DNA of 64,000 nucleotides from the human T2T-CHM13v2.0 reference genome, Homo sapiens, in assembly GCF_009914755.1 (NCBI RefSeq), contig NC_060938.1; one strand, given 5' to 3'. Positions 1,626 through 61,712 of the stretch are shown here, piece by piece (the stretch's first letter is position 1; every line of letters starts with the position of its first letter). The notes under the pieces are model-generated. The model saw nothing but the letters and a program-made list of their open reading frames with translations. It did not search any database and was not told the origin of the DNA. The translations under genes and the position numbers were made by a program.

Positions 1626-6610
<4,985 letters not shown>

Positions 6611-9109: not shown

Positions 9110-9880
9110 TCTTTCTCCCACACCTGCCCCACCTGTCCTGTCCCTTTCTATCCTAAGGTAACAACATTTATTCATTTCTTGTGTATGCTTCCAGGGTTTT
9201 ATTATGCAAGTACAAATATATATGTTTCCTTCTTTTTTTTTTTTTTCTTCCAAGTCAGGGTCTCATTCTGTTGCCCTGGCTAGAATGCAGTGGTGCAAAC
9301 ATGGCTCACAGCCGCCTCAACCTCCCAGGCTCAAGCAATCCTCCTGCCTCAGCCTTTTGAGTAGCTGGGACCACAGGTATGTGCCACCACACCTGGCTAC
9401 TCTCACTTTGGCCTTCTAAAGTGCTGGGATTACAGGCCTGAGCTACCATGCCTGACCTGTTTCCTCCTTCCTTACACCAAAAGGAGTATACCCTACATAC
9501 CTTTATGCACCTTACTTTTTTAACAAGAATTTTTATAAATTTTCCACATCATTACATGAAGAACAATCTTACTTTTACAGGTGCATTATATCCCACTATA
9601 TGGACATATATTAATTTAAGCCCTCCCGAGTTGATGGATATTTAGGTTATTTTCAGACTTTTGCTGTTCAAACAATACCCTTGTAAATAACATCAGTTCA
9701 TAGCTAAGCAGTATTTCTGTGGAACAAATTTCCAGAAGTGTATTTGCTGAGTCAAAGCAGATGTATGAATTTAAAATTTTGATAGATACTAACTAAATGC
9801 CTGCATAAGGGTTCATGTAGGTTTGTATGCTACACCCATGAATCATCAGACCTGTTTCCCCACAGTTTTGCTAACAGTAT
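9110..9880 (-). mobile_element. Ancient L1 (L1ME-like) 3' fragment, split by an Alu
   Basis: gttgatggatatttaggttattttcagacttttgctg…tccagaagtg…ttttgatagatact is typical of an antisense L1M 3' end. Confidence 0.65.
9231..9457 (-). mobile_element. AluJ with internal deletion
   Basis: Poly-T, right arm, then a jump to the distal left arm. TSD tgtttcct on both sides. Confidence 0.88.
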
Positions 9881-39185: not shown

Positions 39186-40759
39186 TCAAGGACATACAAC
39201 TGTTCGTAAGAATCCTTCATGATTTTACATTTAATGTTTATTTATTTTTTTATTTTTTAAGCATAAAAAAACCAAAGGCACATTGTTGGCATTCCTATCA
39301 CGTCAAAACAATGAATATAAACCACATCATACAATTAAGAATCAGAAATATAGAGAATGGGAATAAATTAACCAAGGAACTCATTAATACACCTCCAAAC
39401 AGAAAACTAGGACCTAAAATAATGTAAACCTTAGTGAAACAACAGCTGCTCTTATGAAAATCCATATATTCTAATAGTACAGTATTACTGCCTTTCCTAC
39501 CTTGGAAAAATTACATTATAGTTATGTGGCCCATATTAAGGTTTCTTTGGGCTTTTATAAGTATAAAAGCATTTCAAAAGGATAAGCTTTTGAAACTGGA
39601 CATTTAGCTATCCACTAAGTCAAGTCCCTTGAGAAAAAGTTCCATTTTTTTCCTCTGGCTCTTTTAGAATGTTCCAAAAGAATGATTCAGAGAAACCATA
39701 AATAAAAGAATTATGAACAAAGTCTTAAAATGTAAAGCACCTCCCCGTGTTATCTATACATCTAAACCACGATGCAGTCATGTCAGTCACCTGTCCCATG
39801 CATTTCTATTTTGATGACCTGAATTAGGCCTGAATAATGAGTGGAACTAAAAGGCCCACACACCATGGAAAGCTTAGCGAGTTCTAAGGAGGGGGAAAGG
39901 TCCTTGCTTTGGCTGATTTTACCAGATTCCTTTTTTCTACTTTCCAAAATGAATCCAGTAGGTTGTAGTCTGTTTTTCTGTCTGTTAATGATAGCGTGCT
40001 TAAAGTTCTACTAGCATTTTCTGGAACTCTTTAACCTCACTGTCGTCCTGAGAGAACTCTGCCCCTGAAGGGGAAAATAATTTTTCTTCACCCAGGGCCT
40101 TTTTCCTTGTATTAATATTAACATCCCATGAGAATATTAGCTCTGGAGGAAAGAATTTGGTGGCAAAATTCCATATTTACTCATGAAATCCACCCCCAAC
40201 TTCCACTCACACATTTTAATAGGACACTCAAAAGAAAAGCTCCCCATTCCTCCCTCTCTTCCTGGATACTTCCCTTCAGCTTTATCTGACACCCACAGTT
40301 TTTTCCCCCCTTTTTTCTGCTTGAATCAATAAACACTTTTTACTAGCAGAGCGTTCTTTCAGTAGTGTATACCCTGTATTTGATAGGGCAGAAAAGTATT
40401 TAAATTTTTAAAAAATCACTTGGCACTGGCTGGAGTGTAGAAACAGAAAATGGAGTCAGTTATTGCTTAAGCCCCCAGCATCTAATCCCACCTGGCTGCT
40501 CTTTGTTCCCTCTCTTGGGTTGCAGAGAAGATAGGCATAGCAAAAACCTGATGCACCATCATGGCTCCACGAGATTTAAGCAGTGTAGTGTGGTTGACAG
40601 CAGCCTTCCAGCCTTCCTTTCCTGGAAATGCTATTTAAAACACCCTCTATGAGAGACAGAAAAAAACTCATTGGTGTCATTGATTCTTTAAAATAATTTT
40701 TAAATGACACTTTGCATATGTAGCTGAGTGACAAAACATACGGATTCTGAAGCAACATA

Positions 40760-46516: not shown

Positions 46517-48401
46517 AATCTTGGTTCTTATTTATACAAATTTTTCTATATGCTAGACCTCTGGCTACTAATTATAAAATGCATGGCAAATATCAAAGTG
46601 GTGATGATTTACCTTGGTCAGACCTCACCAAGACCTACTTGGGTTATCAATGTTACCACATGGGTCCTCACACAAATTATAGGTAACTTGGGAATTAGCT
46701 CCCATGATGCTATCAACCGACAGTAATTATTCTGTTGGTAAAAGGCAGTATTGCTTTTGTTAAATTGATCAAACATTTAGGTAAAGTCATGGTATTGAGA
46801 TCAGTATCAGAATGAACAGGGATCTCACTCTGGTGATTGCCACTTTGATAGGCATCAGTTATCACCTTAGGAAAGCAGGTAATTTCATACACATTTGAAA
46901 GGACAAAAGAAGATACCACTCACATCCATGCTTTCAACACTAGGGTTACAGACCACAGGGAGATTTTAACTTATTCTCCTTTAGATTCCTTCTTTTTTTC
47001 CAGTTCACTTGTAATGACTCTCCAAGAAGAGAAATAGACACTGGAAAGGTATTGAACATTTAGCCTGAACATCTACTGGCATGAATATTGCACGGGAAAA
47101 TTTTTCTATATCTGCTCTGTGGTACCAGTGTCTACAACTGCACATTCCTCTAAGAAATACAGTCCCAAAAGGGAAAGGGTAGAGAAATCTGACCTCAATT
47201 GTGGGCATTGGTGTGAGAAATAACACATTGTCTACAGCTCAAAAGCAGTGGAATCAAGGTAGCATCAGACAGAAGACGGCAGCCATTGTGGACAGCTGTC
47301 TCTCAGTGGCTCCAGAACTGCATTGTTCTCACATGAGATTTGTCTATGAGAAGTTCAGCCCATATCCAGTAATGGTTCTGAGAATCTGAATATCATCTTC
47401 ATTTAATACCCAACAAATGATACATTTTCACATACATACACACAAGATCCTTGCTTCTGGAAAGTAAAGGTTGCCCAAAAACAAAACAAGAAGAATCATT
47501 TTGCGGTTGTATGGCTTCACCTTTAGTATTTATCTCAAAAGGGGTCAAGGAAAATGGGAGGGTCTTGGCTCTCTTATTTGATATTATCTCAATATATACA
47601 ACTTTTAGATCCTCTTCCTTTCCAAAAGTCCAATTTCATTCCTTTTTCTGAGAAGAGCAATAAACAGTGAAATATGAATGAGTAATGAAAGTTTAGCATG
47701 GTCAAGTCTAGTCATACCAACCTCAAATTGTGTATAACTATTATCATTGCTAATTAGGAATTATGAAGTATATGCATACTGAAACATATAGGTCTAGCTA
47801 ACCAACTTTATCAGCGTACCAAGTAAAGAAATTATACTGAAATTCTTAAAAATCACAAGGTTAAGACTGGTAACATATAATAGAGACTTTTTTAGCCAAT
47901 TAAATAAGATTTGGCACATAATAGGTCCACAAGAATTTAGCAATGAATGAATAAATGGATAGATGATTGAATTAAGGGAAATAATGTTTTCTCGAGTGGA
48001 AGGCCACTAGTGCTGAGGAAACGTAGGAATTGAAGTATGTAATTGTTGGCGTATGTGCCTGTCCAATGATGGGAAGTTTTTCCAAAGTAGATAACAGCAG
48101 GTGGAATAAAATGCATGTGTATATTCATGTAGGCTGTTTTTAAAAGACATTATCTACATTACCACTTGGTACAAATTCCAAACCATAAAATCACTGAAGA
48201 CACTGTAAACACAGTTTGAGGAGCTATGCTGTTTGCTCCATTTACTTGGTTTTGTTATTTATGCAAGAGCTGTACATTTTAGTACTTTAACTGTTGCAAT
48301 TAGCTAGAAGGGTGGGGAATCCTTAGCAAAGCTTCTAAATGGGACCTATTGCATTGTAGTTACTCAATAAATAAGTACTCTTTCAAAGAAACACCTTCTC
48401 T

Positions 48402-49175
48402 GAAGTCCTTAAAGGAGCTAATGGAGCTGAAAGCCAAGGCTCAAGAACTAGGCGAAGAATGCAGAAGCCTCAGGAGCCGATGTGATCAACTGGAAGAAAG
48501 GGTATCAGTGATGGAAGATGAAATGAACGAAATGAAGCGAGAAGGGAAGTTTAGAGAAAAAAAAATAAAAAGAAACAAACAAAGCCTCCAAGAAATATGG
48601 GACTATGTGAAAAGACCAAATCTACGTCTGATTGGTGTACCTGAAAGTGACAGGGAGAATGGAACCAAGTTGGAAAACACTCTGCAGGATATTATCCAGG
48701 AGAACTTCCCCAATCTAGCAAGGCAGGCCAACATTCAGATTCAGGAAATACAGAGAACGCCACAAAGATACTTCTCGAGAAGAGCAACTCCAAGACACAT
48801 AATTGTCAGATTCACCAAAGTTGAAATGAAGGAAAAAATGTTAAGGGCAGCCAGAGAGAAACGTTGGGTTACCCACAAAGGGAAGCCCATCAGACTAACA
48901 GCGGATCTCTCAGCAGAAACTCTACAAGCCAGAAGAGAGTGGGGGCCAATATTCAACATTCTTAAAGAAAAGAATTTTCAATCCAGAATTTCATATCCAG
49001 CCAAACTAAGCTTCATAAGTGAAGGAGAAATAAAATACTTTACAGAGTAAAGTAAAGCAAATGCTGAGAGATTTTGTCACCACCAGGCCTGCCCTAAATA
49101 GCTCCTGAAGGAAGCACTAAACATGGAAAGGAACAACCGGTACCGGCCACTGCAAACACATGCAAAAATGTAAAG
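48402..49175 (+). pseudogene. L1 ORF1p, N-terminally truncated with a premature stop
   Basis: QSLQEIWDYVKRPNLRLIGVPE…YPAKLSF. A small insertion (gagtaaagtaaag) gives a stop at 49050. Confidence 0.9.
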
Positions 49176-49236
49176 ACCATCAAGGCTAGGAAGAAACTGC
49201 ATCAACTAACGAGCAAAATAACCAGCTAACATCATA

Positions 49237-53059
<3,823 letters not shown>

Positions 53060-53276
53060 ACAATGAGAACACATGGACACAGGAAGGGGAACATCACACT
53101 CCAGGGACTGTTGTGGGTTGGGGGGAGGGGGGAGGGAAAGCATTAGGAGATATACCTAATGCTAAATGACGAGTTAATGGGTGCAGCACACCAACCTGGC
53201 ACATGTATACATATGTAACAAACCTGCACATTGTGCACATGTACCCTAAAACTTAAAGTATAATAATAAAAAAAAA

Positions 53277-54053
53277 GAGAGAGAGAAGATGCAAATAAAA
53301 CACCAAGCAAAACAAGAGGGAAAGAATATTTTCCCCTAGTAAAAGTAAACTTTCAAACCTAGCTGAAATAAACATATGGTTAAATATTGTAAAAGCTAAA
53401 AAAAAAAAAAAAAAAAAAGTCACACACCAAGTGTCTGTGGTCTAATAGTGTAAGACATTATTGATAATTGCAAGAATTGCATTACGAAAAGGATAATAAC
53501 ACAGAGCCCCTTCTAACTGGCACACACCCTTCTGAACACTCTCTATGGGTTAACTCTAATGAGCACTCTGAGGTAGGTAATATTATAATTTCTTTTTTCC
53601 TGATGAGGAGATTAAGCAGCAAGGTAAAAAAGTCTCTAAAGGTAGAAGCTGGACTCAACCCCAGCAGACTCCCCCAGAGTCTGGGATCTTCATACCCTAT
53701 TGCCTCAGTATCATGATTTGGCTCAATTTGCTGCTCTAAAGGAATTGGTGCTAGCTTTCATTAAAATTCAAGAATACCACCCACATGTGGCCTCTTCGAA
53801 TGTGACTGAGGAGAAAGTGAATCAGCCAGATAAGAAGCTGCTCTCTCGTCTCCTTAAAGCATCAGAGTAGGATGTGACCAACAATCAGAGCGGGGTGTGA
53901 CATCTCCAGTGGAAGTGGAAAAAGACAATTGTTTAGGAGCATTTACCACACTTATCACCTCCTGACCAGGGTATCTTGTAGGGATTCAGTATGTATTTCT
54001 TTGTATCTGACATTTGACATAAAAGGTTTTATCACCAAAAAAAAAAAAAAAAA
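53277..54053 (+). other. L1-mediated 3' transduction: two unique segments, each followed by poly(A)
   Basis: aaagaaacaccttctctga occurs at 48385-48403 and 54051-54069, bracketing the L1 plus 53277-54053. A21 at 53398-53418 follows AATAAA (53367-53372). A17 at 54037-54053 follows CATAAA (54018-54023). Confidence 0.88.
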
Positions 54054-54989
54054 GAAACACCTTCTCTGAGTATGACGGAGTGAATTATTTAGATTGTCAG
54101 ATATCAAGAGGAGTTCTTGAAAATATTTAGACATTTTAGAATAGGAAAATTCTGGGTAGGTTTTCATTTAGTCCATTCCTAAACAATAAGGGGGAGGGGC
54201 ATCAACTTGATTTCAAACAAATATTTCTTATTATCAATTATATTTAAGGGGGGTACCACTGTAAGATAAAAGGCCAAGATGAATCATATGTGGCTATCAG
54301 TTATCAGTCTTTCAGGGACAACAAGATGGAAAGGTAGAAAAAATCCCTGATCTCGATGTCGACATTGAGGTAAAGCTGGAAGAGATTGAAATGTCAAGGA
54401 ATCATCAAATTAAAATCTCCCTTCATATGACAATGTCAAAATATGGAAATGTTACTCTGAAACACAGTGGTTGACTGTGAGCCACTGGTATAGAGAAGAA
54501 AAAATGAAATTGCATGTGAAATGTTAATGTGGAATCAATGCCCCAAATCAGGTTGCTCTGAAGTTCCTGGGAGTGAGAGAAAACAGAATTACAACTTGAC
54601 TCTAAAGACATTTGCAACTTTTATAATCAAATACTACTTCTGTCCTTCAAGCCAAACAGAAGAACTATACTATAGGCCCTGATTTAATTGGATGTCTTGA
54701 TGATGATCCTGATGAATGGGCAGAGTCCTGGCATAGTCTGTTAGAAGGAGGAGGTGGGAAGTAACCTTTAGTAGTTAATCAAGCATCTTTGGAAATGGCT
54801 TTAAGACCTCCACTTGGGTGAGCCTCAGGACTGAATCACAGCTCGGATACCTGGGAGAACACATGATATTGGAAACCAAGTTAAAAAAAAATACTCTAGT
54901 ACTTCACCTGGAAAATAGCCACTTTCATATTTTTGTTTTGGGATAGGCACTAAAACTCAGAGAAGGCTATTATAAAATGAATGTCAAGG

Positions 54990-58100: not shown

Positions 58101-60609
58101 AAAGTTCTGCTTTTCCATGTAAGCATTTCTTCCAGCCTTAAATTAGATGTGTCGTGTTTTGTAAGGAAATGAAACTAAATGGAATCTTTCGTGGTTTAAA
58201 TTTCTTTTGTCAAATAGGGATAAGTTGATATGTTTCTATTGCTAAACATTTGAGAACTTAAAAGCTGAAAGATGGAACTATTTTCATATCAAATTTTGGT
58301 GCATGAAATGCCTTTATATACAAACTTTCCAAAATTTCCTTTCCAGCTAAGGTTCATAATTTAGTTTTGATCCAAGAAAACCAGATGCTTTCGTGAGAAC
58401 AGCTTCCTCATTTGAAGGCCATGAAAATCACAAATTTTCTGTTTTGTTTTAAATTGAGAGAAAACACTGGAACAGTTTGTCTGGGGAGGGGGTGTAAGAC
58501 TCTTGGAAAATTACTCAAAGATCATTCACATTCTTGGCTACCATAGGATGTGTAGTTGCATTTAGAGTAAGAACAAATCCTGAGTAAAACAATTTGAGGT
58601 ATTTATCTCTTCCTAAAAAAAGAGTTTGCTAAGTAAATGTGCCATCTCCTTATATGTAAGAATTTGGTCCCATTTTAAACACAATGTGTTATCTAACTAC
58701 AAAATTCAATACAGATTAGAGAAAATGTTAACAACTACTAAATGGCTCTACATGTACTTTGCATATCACTGAACTGAGACTCAAAATGAAAAATGCATTT
58801 GCCATACTTGAAAGGAGAAAAATGAAGAAAAGTAGGTTCATTTTCTTAGTTAAGTAGGTAGGCATTTTTTATACATGTAAACTTTAAATGCTGTATGCAT
58901 ACTGTTTTATTAAGCTATAGATTTTAGCTCTTTATTAGTAAAAATAGGTAGGTAAACTATAACAATAAGAAAAGTTAGTGGTTCTGGGAAACTGGGTGCA
59001 TAAAACGTTACATAACCAACTGGTTTTCAACCTTCCAGTCAGACACTAGTCAAAGAAATAATATGACCTTAGCCAATGGGAAAAACATTGAGCCAGATTT
59101 CTCCCAGCTGTGTTTCTCCCCCTGTAGCCTTCAGCAACTTCAACGGAAGTTTAGTGTGTTTAGGGAGAAAGATGGCCAGAAGAATCAAAATTATTAAACC
59201 AAAAAGGTCAACCTTCAAATTAAGTATTGGACCAGGCTTACTGCAGAATAAAGTTTATCCTTCCCAATGTCCCAGTGCTACAAGCAATATGGTGGACCAG
59301 CTACTATTCAAACAGGGCTGATATCACATGTAATTGAGGCTACCCTGCCAAAGGGGTGAGTAAAGGAAAGAAGTTGTTGGCTTTAAAATGCACAAATCAA
59401 GCTATTAATGTTTCCTTAGCATTCTTTTTGATTTCCAACTTAAGGGTAGGGTAACTGCAAGATAGGAAAAATCCTCAGAGGAGACAGGTCCCTGGATTTA
59501 ATTCTATATAAACAGGAGGCCAAGGAATTTTGACAAAATTGTTGTTCACAAAAAGTTGACTTTGCCTTTGAAGTTCTAGTGTGTTCCATATTTAAGTCAG
59601 ACACCTTCATTCATCCAACAGTAGCACAGAGCATTCAATAACATGATATAATGGCTTTTTTTTTTAGATTTAAAAAGTTACTTCATAAGATTCCTCTCCA
59701 GTCTGTTATAAAATCACTGGCTACTATGTTTTCAAGCATTTCTCAAGTAAATAATTTGAGTTACTTTACATTTTCAGGTCTAATTGGTTTGGTGCAATTT
59801 TTTTTAAATGACCATAGATGCACTAATAATGGCTTAGATCAGTTCTTATTGAAGAGAATGGATGCATGAAGGCCCTACTAATACATAAAAGAAAAAGTTA
59901 TTTAACTAACATTTATCCATAGGATTTAAATAAAACCTGTTGATTTTCCCTCATATTTTCTTCTCTGCTGGTTATTTAGGACGAAGGAGATAAAATACTT
60001 TGATGTTGGTCAAACCATCAATGGAAATACATTCTCAATACTTTAAATATTACCATAGAGTGATATAGTTTATATGGATCACCAGGACTGTGAGTCACAC
60101 CACACGGGATACTCCCAATATATCCTCATAATGCTCATTAGTACATTACATTGCTCTGAGAATTCCTGAAGTTAGACAGAAGAAAACCAAATCTGTTGTC
60201 TAACCCCAAATTTCTCCAGCTAGCCTGAACAAATCACTCCTGTTTTCATGTAATTCCTGATGCCAAACAAACTTTGCGACATGCATACCTGTTTTTGTAT
60301 CTCATTTTTTCCTCCTAGCACAATGACTGGCATATAGTAAGCACTCGATAAAAGATTTTTGAAATGCATACATGATAAAAATGCATAGCTATACTCTCAG
60401 GTTACATAGCTTGTGTTACGCAATTTTTGGATATCTTCATGTTCTAAAGGAAGAGTTGCATTCAGGTTCATGGAAAGAGGCTGCCATTTTTTTCTTCAGT
60501 ACCATCAAATATGGTAAGTTAGGACAACATACCTTGAGCGGAAGCATCTTTATGAAATGTGAGAACTCTTAATGAGCAAGTGTACTTTAACAAACACAAA
60601 ATGTAATGC

Positions 60610-61608
60610 ATATTACAAAGGTATTGCTTTATTGCCCTTGTCTATGCAGAATCCATGACCCAATAGGATTCAGTTCCTGAAAGTTTACTATTACTTAGCA
60701 TTTAATATAAATCCTTCTCCACTAGGAGATCAGCGTGTAAAGGGAATACGTTCTTAGACACTTTGATGAAAAAAGTTGGGATGGTAGAAGCAGATAGGAC
60801 CAAATTATACAAGATTATATATAAATCTCATGGACAAAGGAGTTTGGTGCTATGATTTTAGTCACAGTAAACCAAAGACGGTCCAGGATATGACTGAAGT
60901 GATCACAGTAGGATATTTGGCCACAAAAAGACAAATAAATAAATTGTGCTATGAATTCTTTACAGTGCTCTACAGTTCAGATATCATTTATGAATTCTTT
61001 ATTGCTATTAAAAATGGATGATTGGAAATAATTTTCAGCTACGGTATGCAGTTGTGGACTGTTAAGATGATAGATATAAAAGTCCTGAGCATTTATAAAG
61101 TGGACTGTCTAATGTTATATATGCACATCTCCACATGTTATAACACATGATAATTTATTAGGGAGAAAGCATTTTTCAAAAAATCAGTTGTATATAAATG
61201 CTCCCTGAATCTAAAGTGCTGGCAACTTTTGCCTCAAGGGAAACTCATTTTCCTTCTTTTTAGCCAGTAATTTTTAAAAGGCCTCAATTAGAAATCCAAA
61301 TTTTGGTTGGGAAAATGTGACTGACCACACTTGAAAAAGGAAAATACAAAGTGAAAAAATATCATTCTTTCTGTGCTAGTATAAGTTGCAAATAAATTAG
61401 CTGCACATCATTCATGATCTGATATTATTTGGATTGGTTTACCATTCACAAGGACCAACAGTATTGTCACTTTTGTCAATGTTTGGCAATACCAAAGAGC
61501 CAAAGCTGCAGGTATGTCTGTTAGATAATCTGGGCCAAATTGCTGTAAGAATAGAGATGTTATTATTTGTAACATACTCATGTAAAATAACAAATTACAT
61601 TTGCTTTT
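60610..61608 (-). other. CEP128: 3' UTR of the terminal exon, with poly(A) signals
   Basis: Unique AT-rich sequence after the TAA. Minus-strand AATAAA at 60628-60633 and 60998-61003. The 3' end is inferred. Confidence 0.6.
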
Positions 61609-61712
61609 TTAGCTCCCATATTCCTCTTTTTTGGGTTGTGAACTTGTTCCATTCATTGTGGCATCTTCCTTGTTTGAAGCTGAATCTGGAGCAACAGTTC
61701 TTTTGGTAAATG
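61609..61712 (-). CDS. CEP128: Last coding exon (phase-1 entry) of centrosomal protein 128
   Basis: Strong acceptor tttttctttttcttcttaccttgccAG, then (x)FTKRTVAPDSASNKEDATMNGTSSQPKKEEYGS-TAA (2+102 nt). The peptide is recognised from memory as the CEP128 C-terminus. It is too short for the ORF track. Confidence 0.8.

What the first reader, a model, noticed from the sequence alone, without database searches (positions are those of the whole stretch)
48385..54069. Serial (two-step) L1 3' transduction: ~740 bp of non-L1 DNA with nested poly(A) tails inside the TSD
Seen: the 19-mer aaagaaacaccttctctga just 5' of the L1 does not recur after the L1's own A-tail (53276). It recurs exactly ~780 bp later, right after a third poly(A). 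Between lie segment 1 (121 bp, AATAAA 25 nt before A21) and segment 2 (618 bp, CATAAA 13 nt before A17). Known: L1 read-through past its weak poly(A) signal carries 3' flank into new sites. Inference: two successive source loci each contributed flank, so this insertion records a three-generation L1 pedigree, and sequence that looks unique here is copied from two other genomic sites.
Basis: partly seen in the sequence, partly recalled or inferred. Interest (0 to 1): 0.85.

Follow-up and report, generated by a model that had tools for sequence, protein, structure and literature searches.

The report
Serial L1 3' transduction, pedigree traced
An old, truncated L1 jumping gene in the CEP128 region carries two pieces of foreign DNA picked up at two earlier stops, on chromosome 1 and then chromosome 6; this is a clean but ordinary example of a known process.

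Summary

- **The insert.** An exact 19-mer (48385-48403 and 54051-54069) brackets one retrotransposition insert. It holds a 5'-truncated L1 (48404-53276), segment 1 (121 bp) plus A21, and segment 2 (618 bp) plus a terminal A-run.
- **Parent on chr6.** A search of the same genome found a full-length 6.16-kb L1 on chr6. It is followed by the same segment 1 and an A41 run, all inside its own target-site duplication. Segment 2 is simply its native downstream flank. That flank runs on with no poly(A) exactly where the chr14 copy is polyadenylated.
- **Source of segment 1 on chr1.** Segment 1 is native, single-copy DNA on chr1. No L1 stands there now. Homology starts at a T/AAAA endonuclease-like site and ends after an AATAAA signal, with no poly(A) tail and no target-site duplication.
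- **Pedigree.** The order is chr1 (L1 allele lost), then chr6, then chr14.
- **Age.** The chr14 and chr6 copies differ by about 3.6-4.7%, so the events are old, from the L1PA3-L1PA5 era.
- **Siblings.** No other copies of either segment exist in this genome.

Serial 3' transduction is already described in the literature, so this is a neat new instance rather than a new kind. Outgroup empty sites could not be tested.

The parts
48385..48403 (+). 5' copy of the target-site duplication. The core is 14 nt. The first AAA and last GA are ambiguous.
   Evidence: Exact 19-mer repeated at 54051-54069, with 0 of 100 shuffles giving a pair. The GA is shared with the parent L1 at the truncation point.
48404..53267 (+). 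5'-truncated L1 body. It starts within ORF1 and runs through ORF2 to the 3' UTR. ORF2 is broken into several frames.
   Evidence: Pfam matches: Transposase_22 1.2e-60, Tnp_22_trimer, Tnp_22_dsRBD, Exo_endo_phos 6.1e-19, RVT_1 2.4e-33. ORF fragments are listed. One collinear blastn alignment to the chr6 L1, 94.58% over 5664 columns.
53268..53276 (+). The L1's own short A-tail (A9). It overlaps the L1 AATAAA at 53265-53270, which was read through.
53277..53397 (+). Segment 1: 121 bp first transduced from chr1. It starts with (GA)5. The AATAAA at 53367-53372 was used. The AATAAA at 53294-53299 was bypassed.
   Evidence: 98% identical to C1:67236234-67236353 and 96% to C6:19098748-19098865. Three-way alignments.
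53398..53418 (+). A21 run. It is a copy of the poly(A) tail laid down when the L1 plus segment 1 inserted on chr6.
   Evidence: The chr6 parent has A41 at the same place. The chr1 site has only a genomic A6.
53419..54036 (+). Segment 2: 618 bp of native chr6 flank. Its first 9 nt are the chr6 parent's 3' target-site duplication. CATAAA at 54018-54023 was used. ATTAAA at 53760-53765 was bypassed.
   Evidence: 96% identical to C6:19098903-19099520, 22 mismatches in 618. The chr6 sequence runs on without poly(A). The chr6 duplication TCACGCACC is at L006 2980 and 9304.
54037..54050 (+). Terminal poly(A) (A14) of the chr14 insertion.
   Evidence: It is absent at the matching point on chr6.
54051..54069 (+). 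3' copy of the target-site duplication.

Best explanation
This is one L1 retrotransposition insert (48404-54050) that records two successive 3' transductions.

**Step 1 (inferred).** An L1 sat on chr1 at ..GGAT/AAAAGAGAG.. Transcription ran through the L1's own poly(A) signal and ended about 25 nt after an AATAAA 121 bp downstream. That RNA inserted on chr6 as a full-length L1 plus segment 1 plus poly(A), with a target-site duplication of at least 9-10 nt. The chr1 L1 allele was never fixed or was later lost.

**Step 2 (shown).** The chr6 L1 was transcribed through its own signal, through segment 1 and its A-run, and through 618 bp of native chr6 flank. The RNA was cut 13 nt after a CATAAA. 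It was copied into chr14 by target-primed reverse transcription at a ..TTTC/AAAG.. site. The copy was truncated in ORF1, with 2 nt of microhomology at the 5' junction, and gained a 14-19 nt target-site duplication.

The insert lies antisense within the CEP128 span and has no detected function.
For: **Shown**
1. An exact 19-nt repeat brackets the whole unit.
2. Segment 2 has only one other copy in the genome. It lies directly 3' of a 6156-bp full-length L1 on chr6 and continues with no A-run into unique DNA exactly where chr14 has poly(A).
3. On chr6, TCACGCACC lies immediately 5' of the L1 start and immediately 3' of the A41 run. So the L1, segment 1 and the A-run arrived there as one insert, and segment 2 begins with that site's own duplication. 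The chr14 copy keeps a G before this motif, as in the chr6 5' copy (AAG-TCAC), so the duplication was at least 10 nt.
4. The chr14 and chr6 elements are collinear in one alignment from the truncation point to the end of segment 2.
5. Segment 1 on chr1 has no L1 within the 9-kb stretch compared, no poly(A) beyond a genomic A6, and no flanking repeat.
6. At 4 substitution sites and at the GCT before the A-run, chr14 agrees with chr1 against chr6. At 2 sites chr14 and chr6 agree against chr1. This fits the order chr1, chr6, chr14 with later decay on chr6.

**Inferred**
- The chr1 homology begins at T/AAAA, which resembles the L1 endonuclease target. The consensus is recalled, not taken from a call.
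- Read-through of the weak L1 signal is the published mechanism (PMC6425141, passage seen).
Against: - No L1 stands at the chr1 site in this assembly, so step 1 rests on the flank alone.
- With no L1 there, the chr1 target-site duplication cannot be checked.
- No outgroup genome was available, so no empty site was seen for chr14 or chr6, and the timing is only a divergence estimate.
- The chr6 copy of segment 1 lacks the GCT kept by chr14 and chr1. This needs a later change on chr6, plausibly during growth of its A-run to 41.
- The genome DNA search scores only the best candidates. Very diverged or very short extra copies could have been missed.
Confidence: 0.87

Rival explanations
1. Segment 1 joined the L1 without an L1 ever sitting on chr1. 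Two routes are possible. A short polyadenylated chr1 transcript could have been fused 3' of L1 RNA by template switching or RNA ligation during the chr6 insertion. Or it could have retrotransposed separately into the A-tail of the chr6 L1. Step 2 (chr6 to chr14) stays a normal transduction.
For: - No L1 is found at chr1.
- L1 is known to form chimeric insertions with other RNAs by ligation or template switching (bioRxiv 10.1101/2025.02.02.635956, passages seen).
- The AAAA at the start of segment 1 could serve as microhomology to a poly(A) tail.
Against: - In the passages read, the described chimeras carry the foreign RNA at the 5' end of the L1, not 3' of its A-tail.
- The chr1 homology starts exactly at a T/AAAA site, as expected for an L1 insertion point.
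- A separate nested insert should bring its own target-site duplication. Only one duplication is seen around the L1, segment 1 and the A-run on chr6, although an A-only duplication would be invisible.
Confidence: 0.07
2. It is a single transduction. Segment 1, the middle A-run and segment 2 are all native chr6 flank, and the chr1 copy of segment 1 derives from chr6.
For: On chr6 the three parts are contiguous.
Against: - The chr6 target-site duplication TCACGCACC lies after the A41 run, not after the L1's own A7 tail. Segment 1 and its A-run therefore came in with the L1.
- The chr1 copy has no poly(A) tail and no flanking duplication. Its homology ends precisely at the L1 junction on one side and at the cleavage site on the other.
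- The A-run follows an AATAAA by 25 nt, as a poly(A) tail would.
Confidence: 0.03
3. It is not one insertion. The chr6/chr14 similarity would come from DNA-level duplication or gene conversion, and the 19-mer repeat would be coincidental.
For: None specific.
Against: - The similarity stops exactly at the 19-mer on both sides.
- The chr14 copy ends in poly(A) 13 nt after a CATAAA, where chr6 has none.
- The 19-mer pair is not expected by chance.
- The chr14 flanks are unique in the genome.
Confidence: 0.01

Closest known systems
L1 3' transduction: read-through of the L1 poly(A) signal into downstream flank
   Same: - The L1's own short A-tail is followed by non-L1 DNA, a second poly(A) and one target-site duplication around everything.
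- The donor flank was found directly 3' of a full-length L1.
- The transduced piece starts with the donor's 3' target-site duplication. This is the layout described in PMC4859970 (passage) and PMC6425141 (passage).
   Different: Nothing in kind. The last cleavage used a CATAAA variant signal rather than AATAAA.
Serial 3' transductions and L1 transduction families used to trace lineages (Szak et al. 2003, as cited in PMC4859970; the progenitor, donor and de novo pedigree in PMC6425141)
   Same: Two nested transduced segments, each ending in its own A-run, give a three-generation pedigree of grandparent site, parent and offspring.
   Different: - This lineage is old and extinct. The copies differ by about 3.6-4.7% and ORF2 is broken in both, whereas the published families seen here concern young L1-Ta elements.
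- The founder L1 is absent from the assembly.
- Szak et al. 2003 could not be read, so it is unknown whether this very family is listed there.
Chimeric L1 insertions with other RNAs, such as U6/L1 and mRNA/L1 (bioRxiv 10.1101/2025.02.02.635956)
   Same: Non-L1 and L1 sequence lie in the same orientation inside one target-site duplication.
   Different: In the passages read, those chimeras carry the foreign part 5' of the L1. Here both foreign parts lie 3' of the L1's A-tail, and one is demonstrably the donor's genomic flank.
Orphan 3' transduction: an insert so truncated that only transduced DNA remains (recalled, not from a call)
   Same: The chr1 copy of segment 1 stands without any L1.
   Different: The chr1 copy has no poly(A) tail beyond A6 and no flanking duplication. 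It is read as the native source, not as an insert.

Membership tests
L1 3' transduction (serial) | The element is an L1 with ORF1p, endonuclease and reverse transcriptase homology. | tested here: met
   Pfam matches to Transposase_22, Tnp_22_trimer, Tnp_22_dsRBD, Exo_endo_phos and RVT_1 in 3 of 4 translated pieces.
L1 3' transduction (serial) | Non-L1 DNA lies between the L1's own A-tail and a terminal poly(A), all within one target-site duplication. | tested here: met
   The order is A9, 121 bp, A21, 618 bp, A14. An exact 19-mer flanks the whole unit.
L1 3' transduction (serial) | The outer transduced segment is native flank directly 3' of a source L1 and has no poly(A) there. | tested here: met
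   On chr6 the order is a full-length L1, segment 1, A41 and segment 2. The sequence then runs on into unique flank.
L1 3' transduction (serial) | The transduced segment begins with the donor's 3' target-site duplication. | tested here: met
   TCACGCACC lies at the chr6 L1's 5' edge and at the start of segment 2. The chr14 copy reads TCACACACC, 1 mismatch.
L1 3' transduction (serial) | The inner segment lies inside the parent's own target-site duplication and is native at a third locus, 3' of a source L1. | tested here: inconclusive
   It is inside the chr6 duplication and native on chr1. No L1 stands at the chr1 site in this assembly. The boundary is a T/AAAA site, which fits an empty or lost allele.
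L1 3' transduction (serial) | A poly(A) signal lies 10-30 nt upstream of each cleavage point in the donor DNA. | tested here: met
   AATAAA lies 25 nt before the end of segment 1 on chr1, chr6 and chr14. CATAAA lies 13 nt before the end of segment 2 on chr6 and chr14.
L1 3' transduction (serial) | An orthologous empty site exists in species that diverged before the insertion. | not testable with these tools
   No primate genome other than the window's own is held. The chr14 flanks have no paralogue that could stand in.
Chimeric L1 retrocopy (template switch or RNA ligation) | The foreign RNA is joined at the 5' side of a 5'-truncated L1. | tested here: not met
   Both foreign parts lie 3' of the L1 A-tail. 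The family's layout was taken from the passages.

The most novel reading that the evidence does not exclude
The first capture may not have been a read-through from a resident L1. On this reading, L1 RNA acquired a short polyadenylated chr1 transcript at its 3' end, by template switching from that transcript onto the L1 poly(A) tail or by RNA ligation. That would make the chr6 element a '3'-side' L1 chimera that stayed mobile and passed the captured piece on. This class was not described in the chimera passages I could read.
Probability: 0.06. Interest if true: 0.5.

Novelty: new member of a known kind. Interest (0 to 1): 0.18.

Why it matters
- **Main value is as a worked example.** Parent and grandparent sites of an old, fixed L1 can be named from a single genome, and the pedigree chr1, chr6, chr14 is internally consistent.
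- **Annotation point.** About 740 bp that repeat masking leaves unmasked (from 53303 on) is not unique DNA. It is a 3-copy piece (121 bp) and a 2-copy piece (618 bp) moved by L1. This matters for paralogy calls, read mapping and any claim of conserved non-coding sequence here.
- **Lost source element.** A source L1 that left descendants is itself gone from the genome.
- **What it does not change.** It does not alter the current understanding of L1 biology, and no effect on CEP128 is indicated.

Tried and rejected
- **Longer read-through siblings.** The 880 bp beyond segment 2 on chr6 has no other full copy. The 10 other matches are 54-169 nt at 69-83% identity within query positions 388-618, which looks like an old dispersed repeat.
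- **chr1 flanks.** The flanks around segment 1 match elsewhere only through their Alu ends. The segment-1 part (query 128-261) hits only chr14 and chr6 (46 matches listed, 40 of 270 candidates scored).
- **A stand-in empty site for chr14.** Both flanks are unique, with only the self match in each search.
- **Structured RNA in the transduced DNA.** Rfam gave one match at E = 0.82, 19.3 bits against a gathering score of 78, to an archaeal sRNA. This is chance.
- **Subfamily typing with published primers.** I used the subfamily-selective PCR primers from PMC12432230, Table 1.
  - Both copies miss the same 2 bases of the L1PA4-intended forward primer.
  - The chr6 copy matches the L1PA3-intended reverse primer at 20 of 20 bases, and the chr14 copy at 18 of 20.
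  - The authors themselves say no primer is specific to one subfamily, so this is only a weak lean toward L1PA3-like.
- **Szak et al. 2003.** Not held, by DOI or by PMC id.
- **Phrase searches.** Searches for 'serial', 'nested' or 'sequential transduction' were swamped by viral-vector papers.
- **This locus in print.** A search for CEP128 together with '3 transduction' and 'LINE-1' found 0 papers.
- **Orphan transduction at chr1.** Considered and rejected: no poly(A) tail, no target-site duplication, and an edge that coincides with the L1 junction.
Full report

Yes. The 19-mer AAAGAAACACCTTCTCTGA occurs exactly twice in the 64-kb window, at 48385-48403 and 54051-54069. This holds even with two mismatches allowed. 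None of 100 dinucleotide-preserving shuffles gave a pair, and the repeat finder reports the same pair (family D7).

Between the two copies lie, in order:

| Part | Coordinates | Note |
|---|---|---|
| L1 | 48404-53276 | begins inside ORF1; own tail is A9 at 53268-53276 |
| Segment 1 | 53277-53397 | 121 bp; AATAAA at 53367-53372, 25 nt before the next A-run |
| A21 | 53398-53418 | |
| Segment 2 | 53419-54036 | 618 bp; CATAAA at 54018-54023, 13 nt before the last A-run |
| Last A-run | from 54037 | 14 A's, then the AAA that opens the 3' copy of the 19-mer |

- The 19-mer does not recur after the L1's own tail.
- Translated pieces of 48406-51527 match the three Pfam domains of L1 ORF1p, the endonuclease domain and the reverse transcriptase domain (3 of 4 pieces matched).
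- ORF2 is broken into several frames.

**2. Where do the two segments come from?**

The window's own genome could be searched.

- Segment 1 has three copies, all three candidates scored: itself, C1:67236234-67236353 (98%) and C6:19098748-19098865 (96%).
- Segment 2 has two copies, both scored: itself and C6:19098903-19099520 (96% over 2-618).
- The tool warns that only the best candidates are scored, so these counts are lower bounds.

**3. The chr6 locus is the parent.**

- *Collinear match.* One collinear blastn alignment joins the chr14 unit to chr6, from the truncation point to the end of segment 2. It is 94.58% identical over 5664 columns, with 252 mismatches and 24 gap openings.
- *Full-length L1.* On chr6 the L1 is full length. 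It occupies L006 2989-9144 (6156 bp) and starts GGAGATAGGGTGGAGCCAAGATGG. Its reading frames are also broken.
- *Same layout.* It is followed by an A7 tail, segment 1, an A41 run and segment 2.
- *No poly(A) on chr6.* At the exact base where chr14 has its terminal poly(A) (after ..CATAAAAGGTTTTATCACCA), chr6 simply continues into further DNA. That DNA has no other full copy in the genome.
- *chr6 target-site duplication.* The 9-mer TCACGCACC stands immediately before the first base of the chr6 L1 and immediately after the A41 run. So the chr6 duplication encloses the L1, segment 1 and the A-run, and segment 2 begins with that duplication.
- *Longer original duplication.* The chr14 copy keeps a G in front of this motif, as the 5' copy on chr6 does (..AAG-TCACGCACC). 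The original duplication was therefore at least 10 nt. It could be up to 16 nt if the A-rich part is counted.

**4. The chr1 locus is where segment 1 is native.**

- In a 9-kb stretch of chr1 around the match, the only similarity to the whole chr14 unit is a 135-column alignment over segment 1. No L1 stands there.
- The chr1 sequence reads ..GTAAGGAT-AAAAGAGAGAG.. at the left edge and ..GTAAAAGCT-AAAAAA-TTGGCAC.. at the right edge.
- Homology to the L1-borne copies begins at a T/AAAA step. This resembles the L1 endonuclease target; the consensus is recalled, not taken from a call.
- Homology ends after the AATAAA signal at a genomic A6. There is no long A-run and no flanking direct repeat.
- The piece sits between two Alu elements. 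The non-Alu part outside segment 1 is found nowhere else.
- I read this as the empty or lost allele of the grandparent insertion site. Reading it as an 'orphan' insert is rejected, because it has no tail, no duplication, and an edge that coincides exactly with the L1 junction.

**5. Order of events.**

In segment 1:

- chr14 agrees with chr1 against chr6 at four substitutions and at the GCT in front of the A-run.
- chr14 and chr6 agree against chr1 at one substitution and one 1-nt indel.
- chr14 has one private substitution, and (GA)5 where chr1 and chr6 have (GA)7.

This fits the order chr1, chr6, chr14, with later decay on chr6. That decay includes growth of the chr6 A-run to 41 at the cost of GCT.

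At the chr14 5' junction the parent L1 reads ..GA|AGTCC and the target reads ..CTGA|. That gives 2 nt of microhomology, and the target-site duplication is 14-19 nt depending on how the ambiguous ends are counted.

**6. Age.**

| Comparison, chr14 vs chr6 | Differences |
|---|---|
| Segment 2 | 22 of 618 (3.56%) |
| L1 body, all sites | 227 of 4837 (4.69%) |
| L1 body, outside CpG contexts | 180 of 4837 (3.72%) |

- From recalled species divergences (not from a call), this is a little above human-orangutan and well below human-macaque. That places the last jump after the ape/Old World monkey split.
- It also fits the published era of the L1PA3-L1PA5 families. L1Pa7-L1Pa3 emerged 30-10 MYA (PMC7449397, passages). 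L1PA5 is dated at 20.4 Myr (PMC5237266, passages).
- Published subfamily-selective primers gave only a weak lean toward L1PA3-like.
- An absolute date depends strongly on the rate chosen, and I do not give one.

**7. Mechanism.**

*Shown:* the chr6 L1 was transcribed past three features:

1. its own AATAAA, which is followed by (GA)n;
2. segment 1 and its A-run;
3. an ATTAAA within segment 2.

The RNA was cleaved after a CATAAA. It was inserted at chr14 by target-primed reverse transcription, with 5' truncation.

*Inferred:* the same happened one generation earlier from an L1 on chr1 whose allele no longer exists.

Read-through to a downstream signal is the accepted cause of 3' transduction. 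It accompanies about 20% of new germline L1 insertions (PMC6425141, passage).

**8. Rivals.**

- *3'-side chimera, or a separate retrocopy nested in the chr6 A-tail (about 7%).* The missing chr1 L1 is the only point in its favour. The chimeras described in the passages I read carry the foreign RNA 5' of the L1. The T/AAAA boundary is better explained by an L1 insertion site.
- *DNA-level duplication (about 1%).* It fails on the poly(A) tail and the target-site duplication.

**9. Known or new?**

[quoted passage not shown] 2003; passages).
- A pedigree of progenitor, donor and de novo insertion is documented for a young family (PMC6425141).
- This is therefore a further instance of a known kind.
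- I could not read Szak et al. 2003. A search for CEP128 with '3 transduction' and 'LINE-1' found no paper. Whether this exact family is already listed stays open.

**10. Context.**

- The insert lies on the + strand inside the span of CEP128 (- strand). It sits between the 3' exons of other transcripts (39220-40646) and the last exon of the selected transcript (60607-61712), according to the annotation supplied with the finding. It is therefore antisense to the gene.
- No Rfam family was found in the transduced DNA.
- No RefSeq functional element is listed there, per the annotation supplied with the finding.
- NCBI's repeat mask stops at 53302, so most of the transduced DNA looks unique in masked files.

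**Verdict.**

- The second step is shown. The first is inferred with good support.
- The finding is ordinary in kind and of low interest beyond being a tidy example.

Noticed in passing
L006 9263-9303 (chr6) versus window 53398-53418: The internal A-run is 41 in the parent but 21 in the offspring. The parent has also lost the GCT that chr14 and chr1 keep just before the run. The parent's tail seems to have grown and swallowed neighbouring bases after the chr14 copy was made.
   Followed up: partly
window 53277-53288; L006 about 9145-9160; L007 about 4731-4746: Segment 1 starts with a GA microsatellite. It is (GA)7 on chr1 and chr6 but (GA)5 on chr14.
   Followed up: partly
window 53294-53299 and 53760-53765: Two further poly(A) signals inside the transduced DNA were read through: an AATAAA in segment 1 and an ATTAAA in segment 2. 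The last cleavage used the rarer CATAAA.
   Followed up: no
window 53277-54050: NCBI's repeat mask ends at 53302. About 750 bp of L1-borne DNA is therefore left unmasked and would pass as unique sequence, although it has one or two paralogues.
   Followed up: yes
L002 about 1200-1410 and about 1683-1975 (chr1): The chr1 source piece is a short non-repeat island of roughly 250 bp between two Alu elements in the same orientation. Whether either Alu arrived before or after the L1 events was not examined.
   Followed up: no
L005 about 2510-2740 (chr6, downstream of segment 2): A stretch of the chr6 flank gives 10 weak matches (69-83% identity, 54-169 nt) on other chromosomes. It is probably an old dispersed repeat and was not identified.
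   Followed up: no
window 48402-48405: There are 2 nt of microhomology (GA) between the target and the L1 at the 5' truncation junction.
   Followed up: yes
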